Source: an uncultured virus (IMG/VR IMGVR_UViG_3300035428_000406) (Duplodnaviria > Heunggongvirae > Uroviricota > Caudoviricetes). From it: a DNA stretch of 20,000 nucleotides. The stretch is taken from the IMG/VR virus record IMGVR_UViG_3300035428_000406, one strand, 5' to 3'. Made by a program: the position numbers and the translations under genes. The notes under the pieces were generated by a model, which did not search any database, was not told the DNA's origin, and saw only the letters and a list, made by a program, of their open reading frames with translations. Numbering within the stretch: the stretch's first letter is position 1; every line of letters starts with the position of its first letter. Shown here one piece after another: positions 2,381 to 17,042 of this stretch.

Positions 2381-3055
2381 TCAGGTTTTTAATGTCCGAG
2401 ACAAGGAGATTGATCTATACGGATTTATGCTGAAAATCGGCATAATGATTATGTCGATGTCGTCATTTAGATTGAATAGTGTGGCGCGTGTGCTACCACC
2501 AAAAGTGACAGTACATTCAGCACAATCGCAGAATCTCATTGCCTCAAGAAGCAACTGTAATAGTGAGGCCCTAAAATTTAGCAACCCTATTCGCACAGCG
2601 GCATCAGGGGCTATAACTTTTCGTCCAGAGGGTTCAGATTTTGACAACGACATATAACCGCTGCCGTCGCATACCGGACACTCGAAAACCCTTGTCCAGT
2701 GCCTGTATTCCCAATCAACTCTACCGTCTCCGTTACATTCTTTACAATCCACATCTTCTCCGACAGTAATCATTTCATCTATTAGCGGAGCATAGGAGAT
2801 AGCATTTTCAAGCGTCAACGCCGTAAGTATCCCGTTGGGAGTACATGTCGGGAACAGCTTGTTGGTGTTATCGCTATTGTATTGAGGATAATCGGCGGTT
2901 GTAAGATACCCGTTGACACGGATAAGTATATGGGTTTCCGTGGCAAACACTTGGTTTCGTTCACGCCACGGCTTCATGAACTTTGCTCGATCTTCGTCGG
3001 TGCTGACAAACATCTGCAATAGTTCATCTATGGATTTGATTTTATTTTCGCTCAT
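2381..3055 (-). CDS. protein with DnaJ-type CxxCxGxG zinc finger and beta-clamp-like flanks (224 aa)
   Basis: CKECNGDG and CPVCDGSG. Flanking VFATETHIL, NFRASLL and IIIMPI resemble DnaN motifs ATDGHRL, FNxxYL and VMPM. Confidence 0.7.
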   Translation of the reverse strand: MSENKIKSIDELLQMFVSTDEDRAKFMKPWRERNQVFATETHILIRVNGYLTTADYPQYNSDNTNKLFPTCTPNGILTALTLENAISYAPLIDEMITVGEDVDCKECNGDGRVDWEYRHWTRVFECPVCDGSGYMSLSKSEPSGRKVIAPDAAVRIGLLNFRASLLQLLLEAMRFCDCAECTVTFGGSTRATLFNLNDDIDIIIMPIFSINPYRSISLSRTLKT

Positions 3056-3106
3056 GTTATATAATGCTTTTGAGAAATTGTATATAATTTTCCGAGAAAA
3101 TTGTAT

Positions 3107-4496: not shown

Positions 4497-5357
4497 TTAT
4501 CGGCGAGACTCGCCGGTTAGAGGTATGACGTTATAAGTTTTGAAGCGATCTACCAAACGGCCATAAGCGTCTTTGGCGTTGAACATGGCCGTCAGTTTGG
4601 CGTTGTCGAGGTTAGTCGTAAGGTGGGCGAACTTGCGGTCCGATATAGCCATAGTCCACAGTTCATTACGAGCGTGCAGGAAGTCGGAAACAATCGTAAG
4701 CGTATCTATGCCGTAGAATGGTCGGTTTTCCACTCCAATATCGTTGAGACATAGATGTATGGGCTTAATCTGAAACCCGGTCGAGCCTTCCTCGTTGTAT
4801 GTGTAGAGGTCGATATTGTTATGCAACGAAAAGTGATTGACCATTTGCGTGACAGACACATTCAGGAAGTATCGAGGATTTTTCGTGCGCTTTAGATACT
4901 CACTGAAAATTTGCATCATCAGCGTTTTGCCTGTGCCTTTCTTTCCTTGAAGCATAATGTTCTTATGCAGCTTATAGCCACGGTCGGGGAAGACTTCTTC
5001 AGCAAGTGGGCAACCGTTGAAATAAAGCAACAGAAAGCGTATCACATCTTTGTTGTGCTCGTCTATCTCGAAGCGTCGGTTTTGAGGCTTCAGGACAATC
5101 TCATTGGCGACGTAGATAAGGAAATTCGCGTGTGCGTTGTAGATGTTCTGGTCGGCGAGATTGTTAGCTTCAAGCCTCGCTTTCTCGTTTTCTTTTTGTG
5201 ACAAGATGACGAGCTTGTCTATTTCATGCCACGGGGCTTCTTTCTTACTGTCGCGGCAACGCAGCGTGTGCAACATCGCCTGATCCCATTCGAGGTTACC
5301 TGTCGGCTTCTTGCCGTATTTGGCAAGTTCGGTAATTAGAGTTTGTGGATATGCCAT
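4497..5357 (-). CDS. P-loop ATPase, DnaC/IstB-like helicase loader
   Basis: Walker A GKKGTGKT, Walker B LCLNDIG, HLTTNL, YGRLVDRF and terminal GESRR; directly follows the initiator gene. Confidence 0.85.
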   Translation of the reverse strand: MAYPQTLITELAKYGKKPTGNLEWDQAMLHTLRCRDSKKEAPWHEIDKLVILSQKENEKARLEANNLADQNIYNAHANFLIYVANEIVLKPQNRRFEIDEHNKDVIRFLLLYFNGCPLAEEVFPDRGYKLHKNIMLQGKKGTGKTLMMQIFSEYLKRTKNPRYFLNVSVTQMVNHFSLHNNIDLYTYNEEGSTGFQIKPIHLCLNDIGVENRPFYGIDTLTIVSDFLHARNELWTMAISDRKFAHLTTNLDNAKLTAMFNAKDAYGRLVDRFKTYNVIPLTGESRR

Positions 5358-9689: not shown

Positions 9690-10895
9690 TCACTGTGCCT
9701 TTACGTCGTCGTAATATTCGAGGCCGGCATTTTCTACGAATACGCTTTCTTTGCTCGCGAGCTTCTCGCAGAAAGTAACTTGCTTTTTGAAAATCTTGGC
9801 AAGTTCTTCGACGGACAGGGTGCAACCCTCGCGCTGCCACCACAGCGAAACAATGCCGAGAAATGCGGACGGGTCGTTAACCTTGATTTTCTTGCTTACC
9901 TTGGCTTTTGGAGTGTAGACCTGTTCGGCTTTTGCCATGCCGAAAAGCCCTGCCATTTCAGCGTTGGACTTGTCGAGTTCGGCTTTTTGCTTGGCCTCGG
10001 CTTCTGCTCGCTGTCGCTCCTGTTCCTTTCGTGCAGCTTCCTCGGCCTCACGCTTCGCCATTTCGGCCTTGAGTTGGGCAGCCTCGGCAGCATCAGCAGC
10101 AGCCATGCGCTCAAGTTCTATTTTCTTTGAGGGTAGTTTGTCAAGTATCTCGCGGCGGTATTCGTCCACCTCGAACACAAATTGTTCCTCAAAGCTGGGT
10201 AGCAGTTTTCGGAATACTTCGTTGCGAATAGCCTTTGCCTCGTCGGGCGATATGTTATAGGGCAGACGCACGGCCGACGGCGGACACCAGTCGGCAGGGA
10301 GCGTGGACTGATAGCCCGTAACGGTATCGAACACGGCTGTATAGTTGTCGAGGTTTACCTCGCTGTTCATCTTGGTAAGCTCATTGATAGAGCCGGTGAC
10401 AAGATTGTTGAACGAGCGTCGGTAGTCCTCCTCGACGTCGGCGCGATAGCCCTCTTTGGCTCTGATAAGCTCCTGTGCGGCGAGTTCGGCCTGACGGCGG
10501 CGTTCCTCTTCCTCGCGTTTCTTGGCGGCATAGGCGTTGCGGTATTGCGCGATACGATAGGGAACAGTATCTTTCTTTGTCGGGTCGATAGAGTTTTCGA
10601 GTATGGTAAACTCGGAGCGCACCTGATCGAACAGTTTTGTTACAGGCGAGCGACGTTCGTTCATGGCTTTTACCGTGCGGCGTGTTTTCTCGATAAAGAC
10701 AGCGAGACGGCGGTCGAGGTCGTCACTCATGCCGCAACGCTCAATCTCGTCGAGCAGTTGTTGGCCGGCCTCGGCGCAACGCTGACTTGACAGGGCGTTG
10801 GTTTGGTACGACTGTGGACCGGCCTGAACAATCGTAGCGATGTTTTCCTGACGCACGATAACAGCGTCGGGAACAGGAATAAGTTGGTTGCTCAT
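9690..10895 (-). CDS. coiled-coil phage protein (401 aa) between RecT and the exonuclease
   Basis: Long Glu/Ala/Lys/Arg-rich ORF. Start set to MSNQ (10895) because the upstream in-frame segment lies in a hairpin. Confidence 0.85.
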   Translation of the reverse strand: MSNQLIPVPDAVIVRQENIATIVQAGPQSYQTNALSSQRCAEAGQQLLDEIERCGMSDDLDRRLAVFIEKTRRTVKAMNERRSPVTKLFDQVRSEFTILENSIDPTKKDTVPYRIAQYRNAYAAKKREEEERRRQAELAAQELIRAKEGYRADVEEDYRRSFNNLVTGSINELTKMNSEVNLDNYTAVFDTVTGYQSTLPADWCPPSAVRLPYNISPDEAKAIRNEVFRKLLPSFEEQFVFEVDEYRREILDKLPSKKIELERMAAADAAEAAQLKAEMAKREAEEAARKEQERQRAEAEAKQKAELDKSNAEMAGLFGMAKAEQVYTPKAKVSKKIKVNDPSAFLGIVSLWWQREGCTLSVEELAKIFKKQVTFCEKLASKESVFVENAGLEYYDDVKAQ

Positions 10896-10910
10896 GTTGG
10901 TTGGATTTAG

Positions 10911-10941
10911 GCCGTGCCTACCCACGAGAGGCAGACACGGC
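10911..10941 (-). promoter_or_regulatory. 12-bp intergenic RNA hairpin
   Basis: Minus strand GCCGTGTCTGCC-TCTCGTG-GGTAGGCACGGC; fully paired only on this strand (two G:U pairs); no U-tract. Confidence 0.65.
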
Positions 10942-10948
10942 AGGGTTT

Positions 10949-11911
10949 TTAAAATGTTTCGTCGTCGTTGTCGGACTGTGAGGGGTCAACGGTAACACCT
11001 GCCGACGTGTCGGGCGCAGGTGCAAAGCTTTCGGTGGGCGCAGATGCGGGGTACTGTTGTTGGTCGTCGCCTGTCATGCCATAGAAGTCATCGTCCTGTC
11101 GGGGTGCTTCGTCAGCCTCGTATGTTGTACCCCTGCCGATACGCAGTTTCGGGTAGGTCTTGAAAGCGTGTTTGATACACTTGGCCATAAGGAAGCCACT
11201 GTCGATACGGTTGCCTTCGCCCGATGAATACAGGGCGTTGGGCACTTCGACGTAAGCCCTTGCGTTGTTATCCCACTTCTTGTTGGCCTTGCCCGAATAA
11301 CCGGCGAGGCGTCGCCAATCTTCTTCGAGCATGACAGCGTAGTCAATCGAGCCGTCGGCGCGAGTAATGCGCATGAAGCAAGCGACGGGACGTTCGGAGT
11401 TGTGGTTGATGTTGAGGGTGTATTCTACCGACTTCGTGCCGTTGTGGTCGGTAAAGCTGAATCCGTCGCCCTCGTAGACAATAACGGGGTTGTCGGCATG
11501 GCGTATCTGCCCTGCGCGTGTGCGCTGTATCAATTCGCCGTAGCCGGAGATTGTAAGAGTGCAGCGTTGCTCATAGATGTCTTTGCCGTTAGCGTCCTTT
11601 GCGCCGGTCTTGTAGCCTCGTGGCTGGAGATAGGCAAGGGCACGCGTTCCCGGCTCGACCGAGAGGCCGCAGACGGCGAGGTCGATAAACGCGATGAATA
11701 TAGACACCGGCGTACAGGCTTTGAGGTTTGCACTGTCGGCCAGTAGTCGGTTGAAGTGGATTGCTTCGCGCTCATAGGTTGCTTCGGCGTTAGCTTCGCC
11801 CCACAGCGCACCGTAAAGGTCGATGAAGCGTTGGCGCACAAGATCGTCCTTGACGATTTCCATCGGCTTCAGAGAAGCGACGTGTTGTGCAGAAACATTT
11901 ACTTTGCTCAT
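10949..11911 (-). CDS. recT: RecT-family single-strand annealing recombinase
   Basis: CTPVSIFIAFIDLAVCGLS...AYLQPR...LTISGYGEL...VIVYEGDGF...MAKCIKHAFKTYP and an acidic C-terminal tail. Confidence 0.88.
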   Translation of the reverse strand: MSKVNVSAQHVASLKPMEIVKDDLVRQRFIDLYGALWGEANAEATYEREAIHFNRLLADSANLKACTPVSIFIAFIDLAVCGLSVEPGTRALAYLQPRGYKTGAKDANGKDIYEQRCTLTISGYGELIQRTRAGQIRHADNPVIVYEGDGFSFTDHNGTKSVEYTLNINHNSERPVACFMRITRADGSIDYAVMLEEDWRRLAGYSGKANKKWDNNARAYVEVPNALYSSGEGNRIDSGFLMAKCIKHAFKTYPKLRIGRGTTYEADEAPRQDDDFYGMTGDDQQQYPASAPTESFAPAPDTSAGVTVDPSQSDNDDETF

Positions 11912-11967
11912 GTTGAGTGTTATTTAGTTAAAAAATCGGGTTGTCTGTTCGGAAGTATCACGTTTAG

Positions 11968-11999
11968 AAAAAAAGCCGGCCCCAACTCGTGAGGCCGGC
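11968..11999 (-). terminator. intrinsic terminator-like hairpin upstream of recT
   Basis: Minus strand GCCGGCCTC-ACGAGTT-GGGGCCGGC-TTTTTTT. Confidence 0.8.
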
Positions 12000-12037
12000 A
12001 TTACCTAAACATGAGCAGAATTGAAATAATCCTACTG
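11968..12037 (-). ncRNA. candidate antisense sRNA complementary to phage start-codon regions
   Basis: Lies between tRNA-like 1 and the terminator. Contains UGCUCAUGUUUAGGUA and GUAGGAUUAUUU, complementary to leaders at 14041-14064, 14384-14412, 14568-14580, 11905-11914 and 10889-10898. Confidence 0.55.
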
Positions 12038-12115
12038 TGGACGGTGCCGGAGTCGAACCAGCCTCTCTGCGTCAGCGCGCCTCAGCAGTGTTTCAGCCAA
12101 GAATACTAACCGCCC
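12038..12115 (-). tRNA. tRNA-like element 1 (atypical; no assignable anticodon)
   Basis: Acceptor GGGCGGT/ACCGTCC+A, T-arm GCTGG-TTCGACT-CCGGC, weak D-arm; anticodon arm CTGC/GCAG with a 14-nt loop. Confidence 0.6.
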
Positions 12116-12117
12116 GG

Positions 12118-12148
12118 AAAAACCGTCCACGCTTCACAGCGGAGACGG
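12118..12148 (-). terminator. GNRA-capped hairpin plus U5, terminator-like
   Basis: Minus strand CCGTCTC-CGCT-GTGA-AGCG-TGGACGG-TTTTT. Confidence 0.55.
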
Positions 12149-12195
12149 CAAGAACATTGATTGAATGTGGTTAGGAATTGATACCTATTGTGGAT

Positions 12196-12277
12196 TGGGA
12201 CAACAGGCAGGGGTCGAACCTGCGCATGTGACACTCAATTACCTGTTGAGCCGCTCTACCAACTGAGCTACTGTTGT
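12196..12277 (-). tRNA. tRNA-like element 2 (GGT at loop centre, encoded CCA, atypical)
   Basis: ACAACAG TA GCTC-AGTTGGTA-GAGC G GCTCAA-CAGGTAA-TTGAGT GTCACATGC GCAGG-TTCGACC-CCTGC CTGTTGT C CCA. Confidence 0.75.
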
Positions 12278-12472
12278 CTGGGTCAATATGTAGGGCAGCG
12301 ACTTAACGCTGCATTAAAAGTCATACTTGCTACTCACGCTCATAGCGTCCGTTCATGTGTATCGCATCGGGTATTTTATCCCCCAGATTAGCTACCGTCT
12401 CGCTATGTATGAGTTGAGGTACGCGTACCTTGCGAGGTCAGGCCACCCGCTATGGGCCGTTTTTATTGAGTG

Positions 12473-12551
12473 TGGACGGAGCAGGACTCGAACCTGCAAC
12501 CACCGGCTTTCGTTAACCGGCCTCTATCCGATTGAGTTTATGTACCCGTCC
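12473..12551 (-). tRNA. tRNA-like element 3 (ACG within an expanded loop, atypical)
   Basis: Acceptor GGACGGG/TCCGTCC+A, D-arm CTC-AATCGGATA-GAG with extra bases before it, GCCGG-TTAACGAAAG-CCGGT, T-arm GCAGG-TTCGAGT-CCTGC. Confidence 0.65.
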
Positions 12552-12558
12552 GGGCTGA

Positions 12559-12822
12559 CTATCTGAAATAGTCCTGTTTGTTATCTTTGAGCCTTTGAAG
12601 TTCTGAAACCTTGTATTCCAACTTTTGTATGCGCTTACAAGGCTCAATTTTTCCTGTATCTCGCCACCGCTCGACGTTCGATCGACCGAAGCGGCGAAAT
12701 GCCTCATTTTGGCAGATGTATTCCGGCTCTTCCTTTTTGCGTATCCGCTCTGCAAGAGCGTCGGCAAGGTCGTTGAGGAATACCGCATAGGGCACGGCTC
12801 TATCGCTAAACTGTATTGTCAT
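12559..12822 (-). CDS. Xis/MerR-like winged HTH DNA-binding protein
   Basis: YICQNEAFRRFGRSNVERWRDTGKIEP...LEYKVSEL. Confidence 0.75.
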   Translation of the reverse strand: MTIQFSDRAVPYAVFLNDLADALAERIRKKEEPEYICQNEAFRRFGRSNVERWRDTGKIEPCKRIQKLEYKVSELQRLKDNKQDYFR

Positions 12823-12967
12823 ATCCTATTTGCTCTTTGGTTATCTTCCACTTCAGGCCGGTGACCGTCTGCAAATGTGCCTTAATCTCCTTTGCTTTGG
12901 CGAGAGTGTCGGCCCATGCTTCAGTGTGATTGTCACGGCCAACCGGCCTGATGTAGTATCGTATCAT
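12806..12967 (-). CDS. small hypothetical protein (53 aa)
   Basis: MIRYYIRPVG...; ATG 12967 overlaps the upstream TGA. The longer track ORF overlaps 12964..13194. Confidence 0.7.
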   Translation of the reverse strand: MIRYYIRPVGRDNHTEAWADTLAKAKEIKAHLQTVTGLKWKITKEQIGYDNTV

Positions 12968-13194
12968 GATTTTACCCTTACTTGTTTGGCATTGTGTTCG
13001 CGCAGCTCCTTGAGTGAAGCCCGGAAAAACATTAGATAGCCACTGACATAGCCGATAATCGCGAAGCACACGGCGCAGAAGATTTGCCCTGCGAATAGGC
13101 AACGAAGGCTGTATGAAGCACCAAACAGGATAACCAACACGGAGAAGACGACCTGACCGACGTAGAATATTTTTGCTAATGTTCGCATAGTCAT
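12964..13194 (-). CDS. small membrane protein (2 TM)
   Basis: Two hydrophobic segments and a basic C-terminal tail. Confidence 0.75.
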   Translation of the reverse strand: MTMRTLAKIFYVGQVVFSVLVILFGASYSLRCLFAGQIFCAVCFAIIGYVSGYLMFFRASLKELREHNAKQVRVKS

Positions 13195-13200
13195 TATCGT

Positions 13201-13365
13201 TTAGAGTGTTTCTTGTACGGAGTCGTAGAGTTCCCAACGCAGGTCGGTCAATCGTTCGCGAGCTTCCTCTGTGTCGGCGTAATGGATAAGAATGTCGATG
13301 TCGCGGTAACGCCAGCGGCTGATATTCTCGGCTTTCTTGATGAGTTCTTTGTCGAAGTCGGTCAT
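13201..13365 (-). CDS. small hypothetical protein (54 aa)
   Basis: Own translation MTDFDKELIKKAENISRWRYRDIDILIHYADTEEARERLTDLRWELYDSVQETL; fills the gap exactly. Confidence 0.75.
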   Translation of the reverse strand: MTDFDKELIKKAENISRWRYRDIDILIHYADTEEARERLTDLRWELYDSVQETL

Positions 13366-13376
13366 GGCATTAGGTT

Positions 13377-13610
13377 TTAATAGGGTTCAACTCCGGCAGC
13401 GATAAAGGCGGCTTCTTCATCGACCGAGCCACACCATGTGTCGAGATATTCGTTGGTGGCCTGATAGGTGTTGTCGTCGTGGGCATAGCCACGAGCGGCG
13501 CAGAAAGCCGACCATGATATTTCGGCGCGCATTTCATCGAGTGCTACCTGATTGGACTTGCAGCCGGAGAGAGCGGCCATGATTGCGAGAGTGAGAATTA
13601 TTTTCTTCAT
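13377..13610 (-). CDS. small acidic lipoprotein
   Basis: Signal peptide II MKKIILTLAIMAALSG-C with LSGC lipobox. Confidence 0.8.
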   Translation of the reverse strand: MKKIILTLAIMAALSGCKSNQVALDEMRAEISWSAFCAARGYAHDDNTYQATNEYLDTWCGSVDEEAAFIAAGVEPY

Positions 13611-13622
13611 GTTTGTAGATGT

Positions 13623-14045
13623 TTATGCGGTAGCAACTCCGCGTTTTACAAGATTCTTTGATACTTTGGGGTCTTCAAGTTGCTCACAGATTGCAACTCT
13701 TTTGCCGGCTCTGACGAGTTTCGGAAGGTAGGTGTCGAGTGCGTGTTGAGGGAAACCTGCGAGATAGACCGGATTTGCTTTAGTGCTGCCGCAACGGCGC
13801 GTGAGCGTGATTTTCAGTATTTCTGACGCGAGTTGGGCATCTTCAGCAAAGGTTTCGTAGAAGTCGCCTACACGGAATAGGAGAATTGCGTCCGGGTGTT
13901 TGCGCTTCATTTCGTGATACTGTGCAATTAACGGAGTATCGGTCACTCGCTTTGTGGCGGTACTTGGCTCCACCTTTACTTCGATTGTTGAGTCCGCCCA
14001 ATCAAACAGGCTGGGTTGATTGACGAATGTGGTTGCTTTTCTCAT
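13623..14045 (-). CDS. stand-alone MutS domain I (mismatch-binding) protein
   Basis: [30 protein letters not shown]...TLTRR...[31 protein letters not shown]...LVKRGV, then stop. Confidence 0.92.
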
Positions 14046-14066
14046 GTTCAGGTAGGGATTATTTGG

Positions 14067-14387
14067 TTAAACTAATTCTGCGTCTTCGCCCTCAAACCAT
14101 TGGTCGAAGCCGTCCGCATAGCAGTATCCGGCAAGTGCTTTGAGTAAATCCCATGCCATTTCGTCAATCTTCTCGTCGGCGTCGCTAACATAGGTATCTC
14201 TGTGGCCGCCTTTTCTATACTCGACAACGACATTGGCCGTTAGAGCCTGTTTGAAGTGCTCACGTCCGGCAGGGGTCATTTTGACGGGTGGGCATACTGC
14301 GATTGAATCTATGCCGTCGACACAAACATCACGGTCTTCGCCGAGGATGTTGATTGCGTGCAGGAGGTCTTCTAATGTTACGTTCAT
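14067..14387 (-). CDS. acidic hypothetical protein (106 aa)
   Basis: ATG within the start-associated repeat. Confidence 0.8.
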   Translation of the reverse strand: MNVTLEDLLHAINILGEDRDVCVDGIDSIAVCPPVKMTPAGREHFKQALTANVVVEYRKGGHRDTYVSDADEKIDEMAWDLLKALAGYCYADGFDQWFEGEDAELV

Positions 14388-14406
14388 GTTCAGGTATGTT
14401 TTAGGA

Positions 14407-14571
14407 TTATTTGATTTTTTCTATTCCACCCTCTGCCCAACGGTTGATTGCTCTACGAGCATGGGCAAGGGATTTGTAAATTGTCTTGCGCCATTTGGCG
14501 GTTCCGTCTTTGCGCTCTTTGACTACGAATGTGTAGCCGAGGGCATCTTGGAATACGTGGGTCGTTGTCAT
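14407..14571 (-). CDS. small basic hypothetical protein (54 aa)
   Basis: Own translation MTTTHVFQDALGYTFVVKERKDGTAKWRKTIYKSLAHARRAINRWAEGGIEKIK; ATG within the repeat. Confidence 0.75.
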   Translation of the reverse strand: MTTTHVFQDALGYTFVVKERKDGTAKWRKTIYKSLAHARRAINRWAEGGIEKIK

Positions 14572-14589
14572 GTTTAGGTACTTTAGGGG

Positions 14590-14793
14590 TTATGCTATCC
14601 GGGTGATTGTGATTACACCCTTGTTACGGTCTACTTCAGTTGTTAGCGATTTACAGCCTCGCATAGTGTTGATGTTACTCGCAGCAGTGCGGACTGAAAA
14701 AAGTGCGTCGAGCGAAAATGCGACACTATCGCCAATATTGAGAGCCTTAATTGCTCCCAAGCGGTTGATTTTGTTGCCTTTTTCTTTTGTCAT
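14590..14793 (-). CDS. first early gene (cro position), small putative DNA-binding protein
   Basis: 67-aa basic ORF divergent from the repressor, just downstream of the promoter. Confidence 0.75.
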   Translation of the reverse strand: MTKEKGNKINRLGAIKALNIGDSVAFSLDALFSVRTAASNINTMRGCKSLTTEVDRNKGVITITRIA

Positions 14794-14821
14794 TTGTTAT
14801 TTATTTACTAACTTAGTGCTG

Positions 14822-14877
14822 CAAAGGTAACATATTTAACTGACAAGCCTATCATATTTGACAGTTAAATAATGTTA
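14822..14877 (-). promoter_or_regulatory. early promoter (-7 TACCTTTG) and overlapping inverted-repeat operator
   Basis: Minus-strand TACCTTTG at 14822-14829 fits Bacteroidetes TAnnTTTG. Imperfect inverted repeat TAACATATTTAACTGACAA (14828-14846) / TTGACAGTTAAATAATGTTA (14858-14877). Confidence 0.7.
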
Positions 14878-14925
14878 ATGACACGCAGATTTTTTAGACC
14901 AACTTTAATAAACTATTGATTATCA

Positions 14926-15327
14926 ATGAATTTGCAGTTGATTAAAAATTATTGTGAACGACGACCCGGCGGGCTTCGACAGCTCGCGGAAGAAGCGGAT
15001 ATGTCGGAAGCAAATCTGCACAGATGTATCCGAAACAATAAAATCCAAGCGTCTGACTTGGAAAAATTAGCGATACTTCTGCAAGTGCCTATTAACGTTT
15101 TCTTCGATGAGGCAGAGAGCACATGTATGCACATAGAAGCCCACGACCATGCACAGGCGGCTGGCCGTGATATTCTCAACGGAACAAACAAGGCAGAATT
15201 AACGAGGCTCAGAGACAAGATTGTTTACCTTGAGCAGCGCATAAAGGACAAAGACGCAACGATCGCCGAGAAAGACAAGCGTATCGCTGACAAAGACGAA
15301 CTAATTAAAGTCCTGAAAGGAGAATGA
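14926..15327 (+). CDS. XRE-family HTH repressor with C-terminal coiled coil
   Basis: LRQLAEEADMSEANLHRCIRNN...LEKLAILLQVPINVFF; divergent from the early operon. Confidence 0.88.
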   Translation: MNLQLIKNYCERRPGGLRQLAEEADMSEANLHRCIRNNKIQASDLEKLAILLQVPINVFFDEAESTCMHIEAHDHAQAAGRDILNGTNKAELTRLRDKIVYLEQRIKDKDATIAEKDKRIADKDELIKVLKGE

Positions 15328-15845: not shown

Positions 15846-17042
15846 ATGGCAACTTTCAAAGCCTGTGTGAGAACACCGAGGAATGATGGTCTATACTCAG
15901 TGTTTATCAGAGTCACACATAACAGAGTGGCACGATACATAGCCACAAACAAGACTATAGACAAAGGAAAGTTAAGAAAAGGAGAGATAAGAGACCCTGT
16001 AATCCTTTCCTACTGTTCAACTCTCATAAGGCAGTATGCCGAAAGGCTTAATGCAGTGGATATATCTTCGTGGGATATTAATGAGGTTGTAAGATACCTT
16101 ACTAATATCGACGGAGATATTTCTTTCTCCAAGTATGCCATAAAGTACATATTCAGAATGGCAGATGATTGGGGAATGAAAAGAAACTCCAAGAATTATC
16201 ATTGGGCTTTACTCTCCTTGCAGAAGTATCTCGGCAAAAGTGATGTGATGTTTTCAGACCTTACCACCAAAACTATTCAGAACTAGATTAACTCACTTTC
16301 TGCAACAAGCAGGGCTAAGGAAATGTACCCTGATTGCATAAGGATGATATATAATGCAGCTATGAATGAGTTTAATGATGAAGAAAAGAATATCATCAGA
16401 ATAAAGCACAATCCTTTCAAGAAGATAATTATTCCCAAGGCAGATGTGCCGGAGAAAAGGGCTGTATCAGTTGGAGCTTTACAGCAGTTCTTCAATGCGC
16501 CTGTACCTGAAAGCAAGATGAAAGAATCTTTGTCAGAGTTAGGTAGAGATGTGGCTGAAATGGTATTCTGTCTTGCAGGGATGAACACAGCTGATTTGTT
16601 TGAACTGAGGAAAGAAAACCTAAAGGATGAAACTTTATGCTATCATCGTCAGAAGACAAAGAAATTCAGACGTGACGGGGCTTATATAGAGGTTAAGATA
16701 CCTCAAAGGCTCATGCCTCTGTTTGAAAAGTACAGGTCTGACAATGATTATCTTCTCAACTTCAACCTCAGATACCAAGACAGCAACAGCTTCAATGTTA
16801 ATGTCAATAATGGTATCAAGAAATTCTGCAAGGCAAATAGTTTACCAAGTCTTTGTGTCTATACATTCCGGCATTCATGGGCTACAATAGCTCAAAATGA
16901 ATGTGGGGCATCAACCGCAGAAGTAGGCTTTGCCTTAAACCACTCATCGGCTCACAGGGTAACAGAGGGATATATTAGAAAGGACTATTCCCCTATAAGC
17001 ATCCTAAATAAGAAAGTCATTGATGTGGTATTTATGTCTTGA
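15846..17042 (+). pseudogene. int: tyrosine recombinase/integrase with in-frame TAG at 16284-16286
   Basis: The two track ORFs share one frame: TIQN*INSLSATSRAKEMYP. Arm-binding N-terminus (VFIRVTHNR), GMNTADL, RQKT, YTFRHSWAT, LNH and TEGYI. Confidence 0.88.

What the first reader, a model, noticed from the sequence alone, without database searches (positions are those of the whole stretch)
11968..12037. Candidate multi-target antisense sRNA released from a tRNA-like cassette
Seen: on the minus-strand transcript, the ~38 nt between the 3' end of tRNA-like 1 and a strong terminator read GUAGGAUUAUUU-CAAUUC-UGCUCAUGUUUAGGUA. The second box complements the start-codon region of the 54-aa gene (13/13 nt), the 106-aa gene (13 nt, one G:U), MutS-I (14 nt, one G:U), recT and the 401-aa gene (10/10 each), and the Zn-finger gene (9 nt, 3050-3058). 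The first box complements AAAUAAUCC(UA) in two of those leaders (11 and 9 nt). Known: P1/P7 c4 and P4 CI RNAs are RNase P-processed antisense RNAs acting on repeated short targets in their own operon. Inference: host tRNA-processing nucleases cut out a ~70-nt terminator-capped RNA that silences several early genes. I do not know of such a system described in Bacteroidales phages. Caveat: the two boxes are not collinear with their order in a single target.
Basis: partly seen in the sequence, partly recalled or inferred. Interest (0 to 1): 0.9.

Follow-up and report, generated by a model that had tools for sequence, protein, structure and literature searches.

The report
Phage small RNA mirroring gene starts
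A temperate phage of mouse-gut Bacteroidales carries, behind a worn-down tRNA and in front of a terminator, a short RNA whose exposed stretch is the mirror image of the start-codon regions of several of its own early genes. Related phages keep the same layout with different, matching mirror and target sequences, so it is very probably a phage-made brake on early protein synthesis, though no transcript has been seen.

Summary
On the minus strand, 12036-11968 holds a 5' hairpin, a 14-nt single-stranded stretch (CAUGUUUAGGUAAU), a strong terminator and a U-tract, directly behind a tRNA-like element. The stretch complements six start-codon regions of the same operon by 10-14 nt. It is the only same-strand 22-mer in the window that complements four of them.

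Comparison with relatives settles most of it. Of 42 non-identical related recT loci, 20 carry at least 10 nt of perfect complementarity to their own recT start region 36-170 nt upstream. The controls gave 0 of 42 and a mean of 0.34 of 42. At least five seed/target variants exist, with both-sided changes at four positions and G:U wobbles that fit RNA pairing on this strand only. A tRNA of changing identity, or a degenerate one, usually precedes the seed.

In 14 of 21 loci a copy of the target follows the terminator and is predicted to sequester the seed in read-through RNA. Box 1 is mainly a hairpin arm, and its leader matches are not conserved. No transcript data cover the RNA, so processing, trans action and repression are inferred. 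The Rfam scans returned no C4 or IsrK match. I found no published description. I rate it a new variant of a known kind, interest 0.7.

The parts
12038..12115 (-). tRNA-like element 1, directly 5' of the small RNA. It has a canonical acceptor stem and T arm, but a 14-nt loop where the 7-nt anticodon loop should be.
   Evidence: Rfam tRNA model 27.1 bits, below the gathering score of 29. Aragorn calls 12037-12128 as 'Ala ggc', 92 nt. The same position holds tRNA-Leu in L001, L002 and L070.
11968..12036 (-). Candidate small RNA of about 69 nt: 5' hairpin 12036-12014, single-stranded seed 12013-12000, terminator 11999-11975 and U-tract 11974-11968.
   Evidence: MFE -27.2 kcal/mol, z -4.68, and 0 of 200 shuffles fold as well. 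Terminator scan.
12002..12017 (-). AAUUCUGCUCAUGUUUAGGUA is identical in WIN, L001, L002, L003 and L070.
12024..12035 (-). Box 1, GUAGGAUUAUUU. It is the 5' arm and loop of the hairpin, and only GUAGGAUU is conserved.
11958..11968 (-). Anti-seed UCUAAACGUGA just 3' of the U-tract. It pairs with the seed (11 nt, 2 G:U) in read-through RNA.
14568..14580 (-). Target: start region of the 54-aa gene, UACCUAAACAUGA (13/13).
14384..14396 (-). Target: start region of the 106-aa gene, UACCUGAACAUGA (13 nt, 1 G:U).
14041..14054 (-). Target: start region of the 140-aa MutS-domain-I gene (14 nt, 1 G:U).
11905..11914 (-). Target: recT start region, AACAUGAGCA (10/10). This is the target conserved in all clades.
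10889..10898 (-). Target: start region of the ~401-aa gene after recT (10/10; 14 nt in L070).
3049..3058 (-). Target: start region of the Zn-finger gene with a weak Q-like antiterminator hit (10 nt, 1 G:U).
14402..14412 (-). Leader site AAAUAAUCCUA complementary to box 1. Found in this window only, not in L001 or L070.
14056..14064 (-). Leader site AAAUAAUCC complementary to box 1. Found in this window only.
12123..12148 (-). Internal hairpin followed by U5, closing a first tRNA-spacer-hairpin module behind tRNA 2. No start-region targets were found for its spacer (12149-12197).
12199..12277 (-). tRNA 2 (Thr-GGU type, A at position 33).
   Evidence: Rfam 45.7 bits. Aragorn.
12473..12547 (-). 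tRNA-like element 3 (8-nt anticodon loop, broken acceptor pairs), starting 12 nt after the stop of the 87-aa gene.
   Evidence: Rfam 24.9 bits, below the gathering score.
14822..14829 (-). TACCTTTG, the only minus-strand match to the Bacteroidetes -7 promoter motif between 14829 and 1171. It is the likely early leftward promoter that would also drive the RNA cassette.
   Evidence: The consensus TAnnTTTG is recalled, not taken from a call.

Best explanation
A temperate Bacteroidales phage encodes a tRNA-anchored, terminator-capped small RNA of about 65-70 nt inside its early leftward operon.

Proposed working:
- The operon transcript runs through a tRNA-like element.
- tRNA 3'-end processing, or cleavage at the tRNA-like fold, would set the RNA's 5' end, and the intrinsic terminator sets its 3' end.
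- A short 5' hairpin and the terminator leave about 14 nt single-stranded. This seed contains the anti-start codon CAU.
- The seed pairs across the AUG and the bases around it in recT, in the ~400-aa gene behind recT and in several small early genes. That would block 30S binding, in a host phylum that largely lacks Shine-Dalgarno pairing.
- The result would be delayed negative feedback, or a threshold, on a subset of early proteins.
- When RNA polymerase reads through the terminator, a copy of the target placed right after the U-tract pairs with the seed. The seed carried by read-through mRNA is then masked.

Shown: the complementarity, its uniqueness in the window, its conservation and covariation, the predicted fold, and the tRNA-seed-terminator layout.

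Inferred: the existence of a discrete RNA, processing by tRNA nucleases, action in trans, and repression.
For: (1) Uniqueness in the window. It is the only same-strand 22-mer complementary (9 nt or more) to 4 start regions, among 39,913 windows.

(2) Position-specific conservation.
- 20 of 42 non-identical related loci have at least 10 nt of perfect complementarity between -170..-36 and their own recT start region.
- The same-size control inside recT gave 0 of 42 (longest run 7).
- Shuffled upstream regions gave a mean of 0.34 of 42 (maximum 3).
- In 8 of 10 loci tested the seed is the only same-strand window that reaches its own hit count.

(3) Covariation.
- The seed-by-locus matrix is block-diagonal by clade.
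- Five seed/target variants were seen: UGCUCAUGUU/AACAUGAGCA; CAUGAUUGAU(A)/(U)AUCAAUCAUG; CGUGAUUGUUGA/UCAACAAUCAUG; UUAUUCAUGAU/AUCAUGAGUAA; AUGGUUUGAG/CUCAAACCAU.
- In the start-codon register, both-sided changes occur at -8 (C:G in 3 loci, U:A in 3), -6 (A:U in 2, U:A in 11), -2 (A:U in 4, U:A in 15) and +5 (C:G in 4, U:A in 1).
- One-sided changes give G:U wobbles: L026 CAUGGUUGAU, L010/L038 CGUG, L056 target AUCAGUCAUG, and the window targets UACCUGAACAUGA. These would be C-A mismatches on the other strand, which points to RNA pairing on this strand.

(4) Several targets up to 2.5 kb away on both sides of the seed. There are 2-4 per locus, always including recT (21 of 21 loci, runs of 9-13 nt) and usually the next gene. 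This fits a diffusible RNA better than one cis fold.

(5) Typical small-RNA anatomy: hairpin, single-stranded seed and terminator, with z -4.68. Within clade E, 98.6% of hairpin cells and 100% of terminator cells are paired, against 26-61% when the partners are slid.

(6) A tRNA directly 5' of the seed.
- It reaches the Rfam gathering score in 7 of 10 relatives scanned.
- Its identity changes: Leu-CAA, Leu-UAA, Gln-UUG, Arg-CCG, Ala-CGC, Met-CAU.
- It is degenerate in the window (27.1 bits, 14-nt loop) and in L003, L037 and L038.
- So the acceptor and T arms are what is kept, as expected of a processing handle.

(7) The target motif is multiplied only where the RNA exists. CATGATTGAT occurs as 3 start regions plus 1 seed in two sRNA-bearing records of 22-24 kb. 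It occurs 1, 1 and 0 times in three relatives of 47-66 kb without the RNA, two of them 100% complete.

(8) The motif is phage-restricted. In a 2.9-Mb host MAG, CCTAAACATGA occurs 3 times, and 2 of those are in the prophage (a target and the seed).

(9) Start-region-blocking small RNAs are established in Bacteroides: FopS represses translation initiation of susC mRNAs (PMC11697453, abstract read).
Against: - No transcript evidence for the RNA itself.
- Duplex energies do not single it out from other natural 37-mers of the strand (14% do as well).
- The pairings are short: 10 nt for recT and the 401-aa gene. In the window those two need UGCU, which lies in the 3' arm of the predicted hairpin.
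- 22 of 42 related loci lack the element. One clade has the AUCAAUCAUG recT start without any seed, so the motif does not depend on the RNA.
- tRNA-like 1 scores below the Rfam threshold, so recognition by RNase P or Z is an assumption.
- A terminator in front of recT and the replication genes needs read-through or a downstream promoter, and I could show neither.
- Within clade E there is almost no both-sided variation. The covariation rests on about five lineages.
Confidence: 0.6

Rival explanations
1. A cis-only element. No free small RNA acts. The seed works inside the polycistronic mRNA, folding onto the site after the terminator or onto the recT start about 95 nt downstream. That would couple recT translation to read-through or to processing, for example through an RNase III-type long stem.
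For: The seed pairs with a complement right after the U-tract in the MFE folds of 3 of 3 clade representatives. That complement is at least 8 nt in 14 of 21 loci and changes with the clade. The recT start is the one universal partner (21 of 21) and always lies within about 135 nt.
Against: One cis seed cannot occupy 3-6 sites at once, and some sites lie 1-2.5 kb away on either side. The strong terminator and U-tract directly after the seed predict that many transcripts end there. The anti-seed is weak or missing in 7 of 21 loci, while start-region complementarity never is.
Confidence: 0.2
2. An RNA immunity or exclusion determinant. The same RNA is made in lysogens and blocks the early genes of leaky or superinfecting phages of the same seed/target type. 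The clade-specific pairs would then define heteroimmune groups, as recalled for c4 in P1 versus P7. This differs from the best explanation in timing and purpose, not in chemistry.
For: Seed/target pairs are clade-specific. The phage is temperate: integrase hit at 16323-17042 and an HTH regulator at 14926-15327. In one metatranscriptome the repressor side is covered by a contig of depth 92, and RNA contigs also cover part of the tRNA cassette. This is a weak hint only, because contigs cannot rank expression.
Against: No promoter motif was found in front of the cassette. In clade E the tRNA starts right after the stop codon of the upstream gene, which argues for co-transcription with the early operon. 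A protein repressor candidate is already present.
Confidence: 0.12
3. The repeated start-region motif is an operator for a translational repressor protein (RegA-like) or another RNA-binding protein. The inverted copy would be a by-product or a decoy.
For: T4 RegA binds AU-rich sites that overlap the AUG of about 30 mRNAs (PMC3014915, passages read). The AUCAAUCAUG recT start exists in phages without the seed.
Against: A protein site does not explain a reverse-complement copy at a fixed place between a tRNA and a terminator. Nor does it explain why that copy changes in step with the targets, or why the changes tolerate G:U but not C-A.
Confidence: 0.04
4. Chance, a plus-strand micro-ORF (32 aa from 12011), or a tRNA-gene remnant of an attachment site.
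For: The plus strand reads like a start region (ACCTAAACATGAGC). Phage att sites often hold tRNA 3' parts.
Against: The ORF is not conserved: 14 codons in L002, and ATG followed at once by TAG in clade E. Chance is excluded. In 7 of 10 relatives the tRNA is full-length, and the element sits about 4 kb from the integrase, inside the early operon.
Confidence: 0.02

Closest known systems
P1/P7 c4 RNA and P4 CI RNA (Rfam C4 family)
   Same: Phage-encoded antisense RNA cut out of the same operon transcript that carries its short, repeated targets. Targets lie on both sides of the RNA gene. tRNA-processing enzymes are used for maturation. P1 versus P7 differ in specificity. A passage in PMC3632133 links C4/CI and IsrK/seqA, and the title 'processed 77 base antisense RNA' was seen in a reference list. 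All other details are recalled.
   Different: No sequence or structure match to C4 or IsrK. Here a separate tRNA or tRNA-like gene precedes the RNA, whereas c4/CI is itself the RNase P substrate. The 3' end is an intrinsic terminator. The targets are start codons of up to six genes, not two sites in one leader. The host is Bacteroidales, not an enterobacterium.
[quoted passage not shown]
   Same: The regulatory RNA is the tRNA 3' trailer up to and including the operon's Rho-independent terminator (PMC6191717, passages read).
   Different: 3'ETS-leuZ is a sponge for other small RNAs and is chromosomal. This element is phage-borne and its seed mirrors mRNA start regions.
FopS and GibS small RNAs of Bacteroides thetaiotaomicron
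   Same: Small RNAs of the same phylum that repress translation initiation by pairing at the start region (PMC11697453, abstract read).
   Different: Those are host chromosomal, not tRNA-linked, and target glycan-uptake genes. No homology was detected or tested beyond the Rfam scan.
T4 RegA translational repressor
   Same: One phage factor shuts off many early mRNAs by occupying sites that overlap the AUG (PMC3014915).
   Different: RegA is a protein with loose AU-rich specificity. Here recognition is by Watson-Crick pairing of an RNA.
DicF of the Qin prophage (recalled, no call)
   Same: A prophage small RNA processed from a polycistronic transcript, ending in an intrinsic terminator and pairing at start regions.
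   Different: DicF targets host genes and has no tRNA anchor.

Membership tests
C4 / CI antisense RNA family (P1, P7, P4) | Sequence and structure match to the Rfam C4 model (and to IsrK/seqA for the target element) | tested here: not met
   cmscan of the window at E up to 1 and of 11900-12600 at E up to 10 lists neither family.
C4 / CI antisense RNA family (P1, P7, P4) | Encoded on the same strand and in the same operon as its short repeated targets | tested here: met
   Six same-strand targets lie upstream and downstream of the seed.
C4 / CI antisense RNA family (P1, P7, P4) | 5' end made by RNase P acting on the RNA itself | not testable with these tools
   Here a separate tRNA-like fold precedes the RNA. 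No end-mapping data.
tRNA 3'ETS-derived small RNA (3'ETS-leuZ type) | Lies directly 3' of a tRNA in one transcription unit | tested here: met
   The seed unit starts 1 nt after tRNA-like 1. A tRNA at or above the Rfam gathering score directly precedes it in 7 of 10 relatives.
tRNA 3'ETS-derived small RNA (3'ETS-leuZ type) | Ends at an intrinsic terminator | tested here: met
   10-pair stem plus U7. Equivalent hairpins in the relatives.
tRNA 3'ETS-derived small RNA (3'ETS-leuZ type) | Released as a stable RNA by an endonuclease | not testable with these tools
   The RNA contigs do not inform on this stretch.
Trans-acting start-region-blocking small RNA (as FopS/GibS in Bacteroides) | Single-stranded seed complementary to the start region of several mRNAs | tested here: met
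Trans-acting start-region-blocking small RNA (as FopS/GibS in Bacteroides) | Seed and targets co-vary in relatives | tested here: met
Trans-acting start-region-blocking small RNA (as FopS/GibS in Bacteroides) | Detected transcript and a measured effect on translation | not testable with these tools
   No data.
Functional tRNA (for tRNA-like 1) | Rfam tRNA score at or above gathering, and a 7-nt anticodon loop | tested here: not met
   27.1 bits against 29, and a 14-nt loop. tRNA 2 (12199-12277) does pass at 45.7 bits.

The most novel reading that the evidence does not exclude
Anti-start-codon RNAs may be a general, so far undescribed control layer of Bacteroidota phages. In this phylum translation starts without Shine-Dalgarno pairing. 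A phage could therefore silence a chosen set of its own genes, or a rival's, simply by giving them a private start-region 'address' and encoding its mirror image behind a tRNA.

In this family the clade-specific address/mirror pairs would act as RNA immunity types. The target copy behind the terminator would make the system a read-through sensor: terminated transcripts arm the silencer, and read-through transcripts disarm their own copy.

Two unchecked AI notes of this scan report look-alike layouts in crAss-like phages and in a 154-kb Bacteroidota phage, which is what generality would predict.
Probability: 0.25. Interest if true: 0.85.

Novelty: new variant of a known kind. Interest (0 to 1): 0.7.

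Why it matters
Very little is known about how phages of gut Bacteroidales time their gene expression, and no phage-encoded regulatory RNA of this kind turned up in my full-text searches. This element gives a concrete, testable regulator with named targets: recT, its ~400-aa neighbour, small early genes and a Q-like protein.

It also shows a simple design rule (tRNA handle, seed, terminator, masking copy) that could be searched for in other phages. The rule could be reused as a programmable translational switch in Bacteroides, where genetic tools are scarce.

The drifting anticodon arms of the anchoring tRNAs suggest that some 'phage tRNAs' in metagenomes are processing handles rather than decoders.

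Tried and rejected
- Transcript evidence. Three metatranscriptome runs (two studies) and one run of unknown kind were laid as contigs on 10900-14900. No RNA contig covers 11972-12105.
- GenBank phage collection, distant blastn of 11900-12900: no match.
I used the search for related loci instead.
- Energy-based target ranking with duplexfold: better than shuffled seeds (1% reach it) but not better than other natural 37-mers (14%). I dropped it as a test.
- Second module. The spacer behind tRNA 2 (12149-12197) has no conserved start-region complementarity in WIN, L001, L002 or L003.
- Promoter in front of the cassette. The full two-box Bacteroidetes pattern gives 0 matches in the window, and the -7 box alone is not enriched (18 found, 14.8 expected). 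The only minus-strand copy upstream of the operon is at 14829-14822.
- The sigma-70 scan is irrelevant for this phylum and not enriched.
- Upstream ORF after the terminator: 13 codons from GTG in the window, but there is no start codon in L041 or L035 and the frame is not kept. Rejected.
- Other same-strand windows with 3 hits elsewhere (L025, L026, L028 at about +3.4 kb; L009; L015; L031) are coding-sequence coincidences on inspection.
- The 195-nt inter-tRNA element does not fold better than shuffles (z -0.46) and has no Rfam match.
- Papers on c4 (PMC312442) and on the P4 targets (PMC176756) are not held. Statements on them are recalled, or come from titles and one passage.
Full report
SETTING

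The window is part of a virus record.

Pfam and PHROG hits show a temperate phage:
- An integrase hit at 16323-17042 and an HTH regulator at 14926-15327 on the plus strand.
- A long leftward (minus-strand) early operon. It holds small ORFs, a MutS-domain-I protein (14045-13623), a lipoprotein and an 87-aa ORF. An RNA cassette follows.
- Behind the cassette come RecT (11911-10949), a ~401-aa protein, a DUF3799/exonuclease, an SNF2 helicase, a replisome organizer, a DnaC-like loader and dUTPase. Last is a Zn-finger protein with a weak Q-like hit (3055-2381).

A prophage with the identical seed lies in a MAG titled 'uncultured Porphyromonadaceae bacterium', so the host is in the Bacteroidales.

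Reading the minus strand, tRNA-like 1 ends at 12037/12038. The sequence then runs A-GUAGGAUUAUUU-CAAUUC-UGCUCAUGUUUAGGUA-AU, followed by a 10-pair, 8 G-C hairpin (11999-11975) and U7.

I scored all 39,913 other 22-nt windows of both strands against 52 first-ATG start regions. Only three clusters reach the seed's four hits. All three are on the opposite strand, so they are the start regions themselves read backwards. The seed is therefore unique on the transcribed strand.

An energy-only test was less convincing. The five best duplexes are the five best sequence matches (-21.8 to -17.3 kcal/mol). But 14% of other natural 37-mers of the strand reach as many start regions at -12 kcal/mol or lower, against 1% of shuffled seeds. 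G+C-rich stretches score well without specificity.

ANATOMY

Folded alone, the 69-nt unit gives three parts:
- a 9-pair 5' hairpin, AGUAGGAUU with AAUUCUGCU;
- 14 unpaired bases, CAUGUUUAGGUAAU;
- the terminator.

The fold has z -4.68, and 0 of 200 shuffles fold as well.

Box 1 is thus mainly a hairpin arm. In the close relatives L001, L002, L003 and L070 only GUAGGAUU is kept. L003 has GUAGAAUU, which turns a G:U pair into A:U. L002 and L003 carry an extra hairpin inserted in the loop. The stretch AAUUCUGCUCAUGUUUAGGUA is identical in all five sequences. The AAAUAAUCC leader sites that match box 1 are not found in L001 or L070, so I do not count box 1 as a conserved second seed.

tRNA-like 1 scores 27.1 bits against the Rfam tRNA model (gathering score 29). 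Its acceptor and T arm are good, but it has a 14-nt loop in place of the anticodon loop.

Two more tRNA-type elements lie upstream: 12277-12199 (45.7 bits) and 12547-12473 (24.9 bits). A second hairpin with a U-run lies at 12148-12123.

RELATIVES

A RecT-based search of IMG/VR returned 68 loci. Of these, 57 plus the window contain the recT start with at least 170 nt upstream, which makes 42 non-identical sequences.

- In 20 of the 42, the region -170..-36 contains at least 10 nt of perfect complementarity to the locus's own recT start region (-16..+9).
- A same-size control inside recT gives 0 of 42 (longest run 7).
- Shuffled upstream regions give a mean of 0.34 of 42 (maximum 3).
- With G:U pairs allowed, L006, L012, L016, L026 and L056 join.

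In these loci the order is the same: a tRNA or tRNA-like 3' end, a short hairpin, the seed, a G+C-rich hairpin with a U-run, 40-65 nt, and then recT.

An unbiased scan for same-strand windows that complement two or more start regions finds this position (-85 to -138 from recT) in 24 of 58 loci. Most windows elsewhere reach only two hits; the six loci with a three-hit window elsewhere were inspected and put down to coincidence.

COVARIATION

The seeds differ between clades, and each matches its own clade's start regions:
- Clade A (window, L001-3, L070): UGCUCAUGUUUAGGUA, with (U)ACCUAAACAUGA and AACAUGAGCA.
- Clade E (14 distinct sequences): CAUGAUUGAU(A), with (U)AUCAAUCAUG.
- Clade C (L010, L036, L038): (C/G)(G/A)UGAUUGUUGA, with UCAACAAUCAUG.
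- L006/L007: UUAUUCAUGAU, with AUCAUGAGUAA.
- L015: AUGGUUUGAG, with CUCAAACCAU.

The seed-by-locus matrix is block-diagonal: own clade 2-4 start regions, clade A against clade C or E mostly 0.

Aligned on the start codon, both-sided changes occur at four positions:
- -8: C:G in 3 loci, U:A in 3.
- -6: A:U in 2 loci, U:A in 11.
- -2: A:U in 4 loci, U:A in 15.
- +5: C:G in 4 loci, U:A in 1.

One-sided changes are transitions that give G:U pairs. Examples are L026 CAUGGUUGAU, L010/L038 CGUG opposite AUG, the L056 target AUCAGUCAUG, and the window targets UACCUGAACAUGA. On the other strand these would be C-A mismatches, so the constraint is on RNA of this strand, not on duplex DNA.

Within clade E there is little variation. 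Seed:recT pairs are 92.9% paired, with one both-sided change (A:U in 3 sequences, G:C in 1). The hairpin is 98.6% paired and the terminator 100%, against 26-61% when partners are slid. The covariation argument therefore rests on about five lineages, not on dozens of events.

TARGETS

- recT is a partner in 21 of 21 loci examined, with runs of 9-13 nt.
- The ~400-aa gene behind recT is a partner in most.
- Further partners are small upstream genes, for example a ~78-aa lipoprotein in clade E.

The motif is multiplied only where the seed exists. CATGATTGAT occurs as three start regions plus the seed in two sRNA-bearing records of 22-24 kb. It occurs once, once and not at all in three relatives of 47-66 kb without the element, two of them rated complete. 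So the recT start sequence is older than the RNA, and the regulon seems to have grown around it.

In the 2.9-Mb host MAG, CCTAAACATGA occurs three times, and two of those are in the prophage. That gives no sign of a host regulon at this stringency.

THE tRNA ANCHOR

Directly before the seed unit, 7 of 10 relatives scanned have a tRNA at or above the Rfam gathering score. Its identity varies: Leu-CAA, Leu-UAA, Gln-UUG (8 clade-E loci), Arg-CCG (L033, same gene with the anticodon changed), Ala-CGC and Met-CAU.

It is degenerate or undetected in the window, L003, L026, L037 and L038. L006 has none nearby.

What is kept is an acceptor and T-arm fold right in front of the RNA. That is what RNase P and RNase Z recognise (established knowledge, not tested here). 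It fits a processing or stabilising handle better than a decoding function.

In clade E the tRNA begins 1-3 nt after the stop codon of the upstream gene. In the window, tRNA-like 3 starts 12 nt after a stop codon. The only minus-strand match to the recalled Bacteroidetes -7 motif between 14829 and 1171 is at 14829-14822. Co-transcription with the early operon is therefore the simplest reading.

A MASKING COPY BEHIND THE TERMINATOR

Right after the U-tract lies a copy of the target:
- Window: UCUAAACGUGA, 11 nt with 2 G:U.
- Clade E: UCAAUCAUG.
- L010: GCAAUCAC.

This copy is at least 8 nt in 14 of 21 loci and changes with the clade. In MFE folds of read-through RNA from three clades the seed is paired with it, enclosing the terminator.

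It is not a conserved upstream ORF, since L041 and L035 lack a start codon there.

I read it as a device that masks the seed on read-through mRNA. It could instead create a long stem for processing. It is also the main support for the cis-only rival.

MECHANISM AND RIVALS

My best reading (0.6) is a discrete, trans-acting, start-region-blocking small RNA made from the early transcript. It would give delayed negative feedback, or a threshold, on RecT and a set of early proteins.

- The cis-only model (0.2) is weakened by the number and distance of the targets and by the strong terminator.
- An immunity or exclusion role in lysogens (0.12) is the same chemistry with different timing. It is attractive because the pairs are clade-specific, but no promoter is evident.
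- A protein-operator explanation (0.04) does not account for a covarying mirror copy.
- Chance, the plus-strand ORF or an att remnant (0.02) are excluded.

COMPARISON WITH KNOWN SYSTEMS

- It works like P1/P7 c4 and P4 CI, in that an RNA is cut from the operon that carries its targets. It is not a member of that family.
- Its biogenesis layout is that of 3'ETS-leuZ (PMC6191717).
- Its presumed action is that of Bacteroides FopS (PMC11697453).
- Its biological role resembles T4 RegA (PMC3014915).

Full-text searches for such an element in Bacteroides or crAss-type phages found nothing. Subscription journals are mostly not covered.

Two unchecked notes of this scan describe look-alike layouts in other Bacteroidota phages. 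I did not test them.

VERDICT

The feature is real, conserved and covarying. It is a new variant of a known kind. Interest is 0.7. The function is inferred and not yet shown.

Noticed in passing
window 12278-12472 (-): A 195-nt stretch between tRNA-like 3 and tRNA 2 is about 95% conserved in L001 and L002. In L002 it is flanked by tRNA-Gln and tRNA-Phe. RNA contigs of two metatranscriptome runs of one study end inside or near it (12228-12449 and 12258-12443; depth 15.5 against 3-7 for neighbouring contigs). It has no Rfam match and folds no better than shuffles (z -0.46). It may be a second RNA released by tRNA punctuation.
   Followed up: partly
window 12123-12198 (-): Behind tRNA 2 lies a first tRNA-spacer-hairpin-U5 module. 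The hairpin is conserved, with one compensatory change between WIN/L003 and L001/L002. The spacer shares UAGGUA with the seed but has no conserved start-region targets.
   Followed up: partly
loci L033, L037 compared with L041 (alignment A1): Orthologous anchor tRNAs change anticodon (UUG to CCG in L033) or lose a recognisable anticodon arm (L037), while the acceptor and T arms stay the same. Some phage 'tRNAs' may be processing handles.
   Followed up: partly
window about 11935-11920 (-), and the same place in most loci: An A/T-rich motif close to TTAACAATTTAA lies 10-25 nt before the recT ATG in nearly all clades, including those without the small RNA. Its function is unknown; it could be a promoter element, an operator or a translation enhancer.
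   Followed up: no
window 15846-16286 and 16323-17042 (+): Weak integrase N-terminal (Arm/SAM-like) hits and the catalytic part fall in two adjacent ORFs. The integrase may be split, or the start may be mis-called.
   Followed up: no
window 14835-14900 and beyond: In one metatranscriptome an 823-nt contig of depth 92 covers the divergent promoter and repressor side. That is far above the contigs on the early operon and is consistent with lysogens dominating that sample.
   Followed up: no
window 13623-14045 (-): A stand-alone 140-aa protein consisting of MutS domain I only (Pfam E 1e-35) lies in the early operon, and its start region is the best predicted target. It is a possible mismatch-repair decoy.
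   Followed up: no
L015 about 4900-4960: This locus has a different seed (AUGGUUUGAG) but nearly the same hairpin as the window's terminator (GGCCGGCCCCACGGGUUGGGGCUGACC), without a U-tract. The hairpin module may move between seeds.
   Followed up: no
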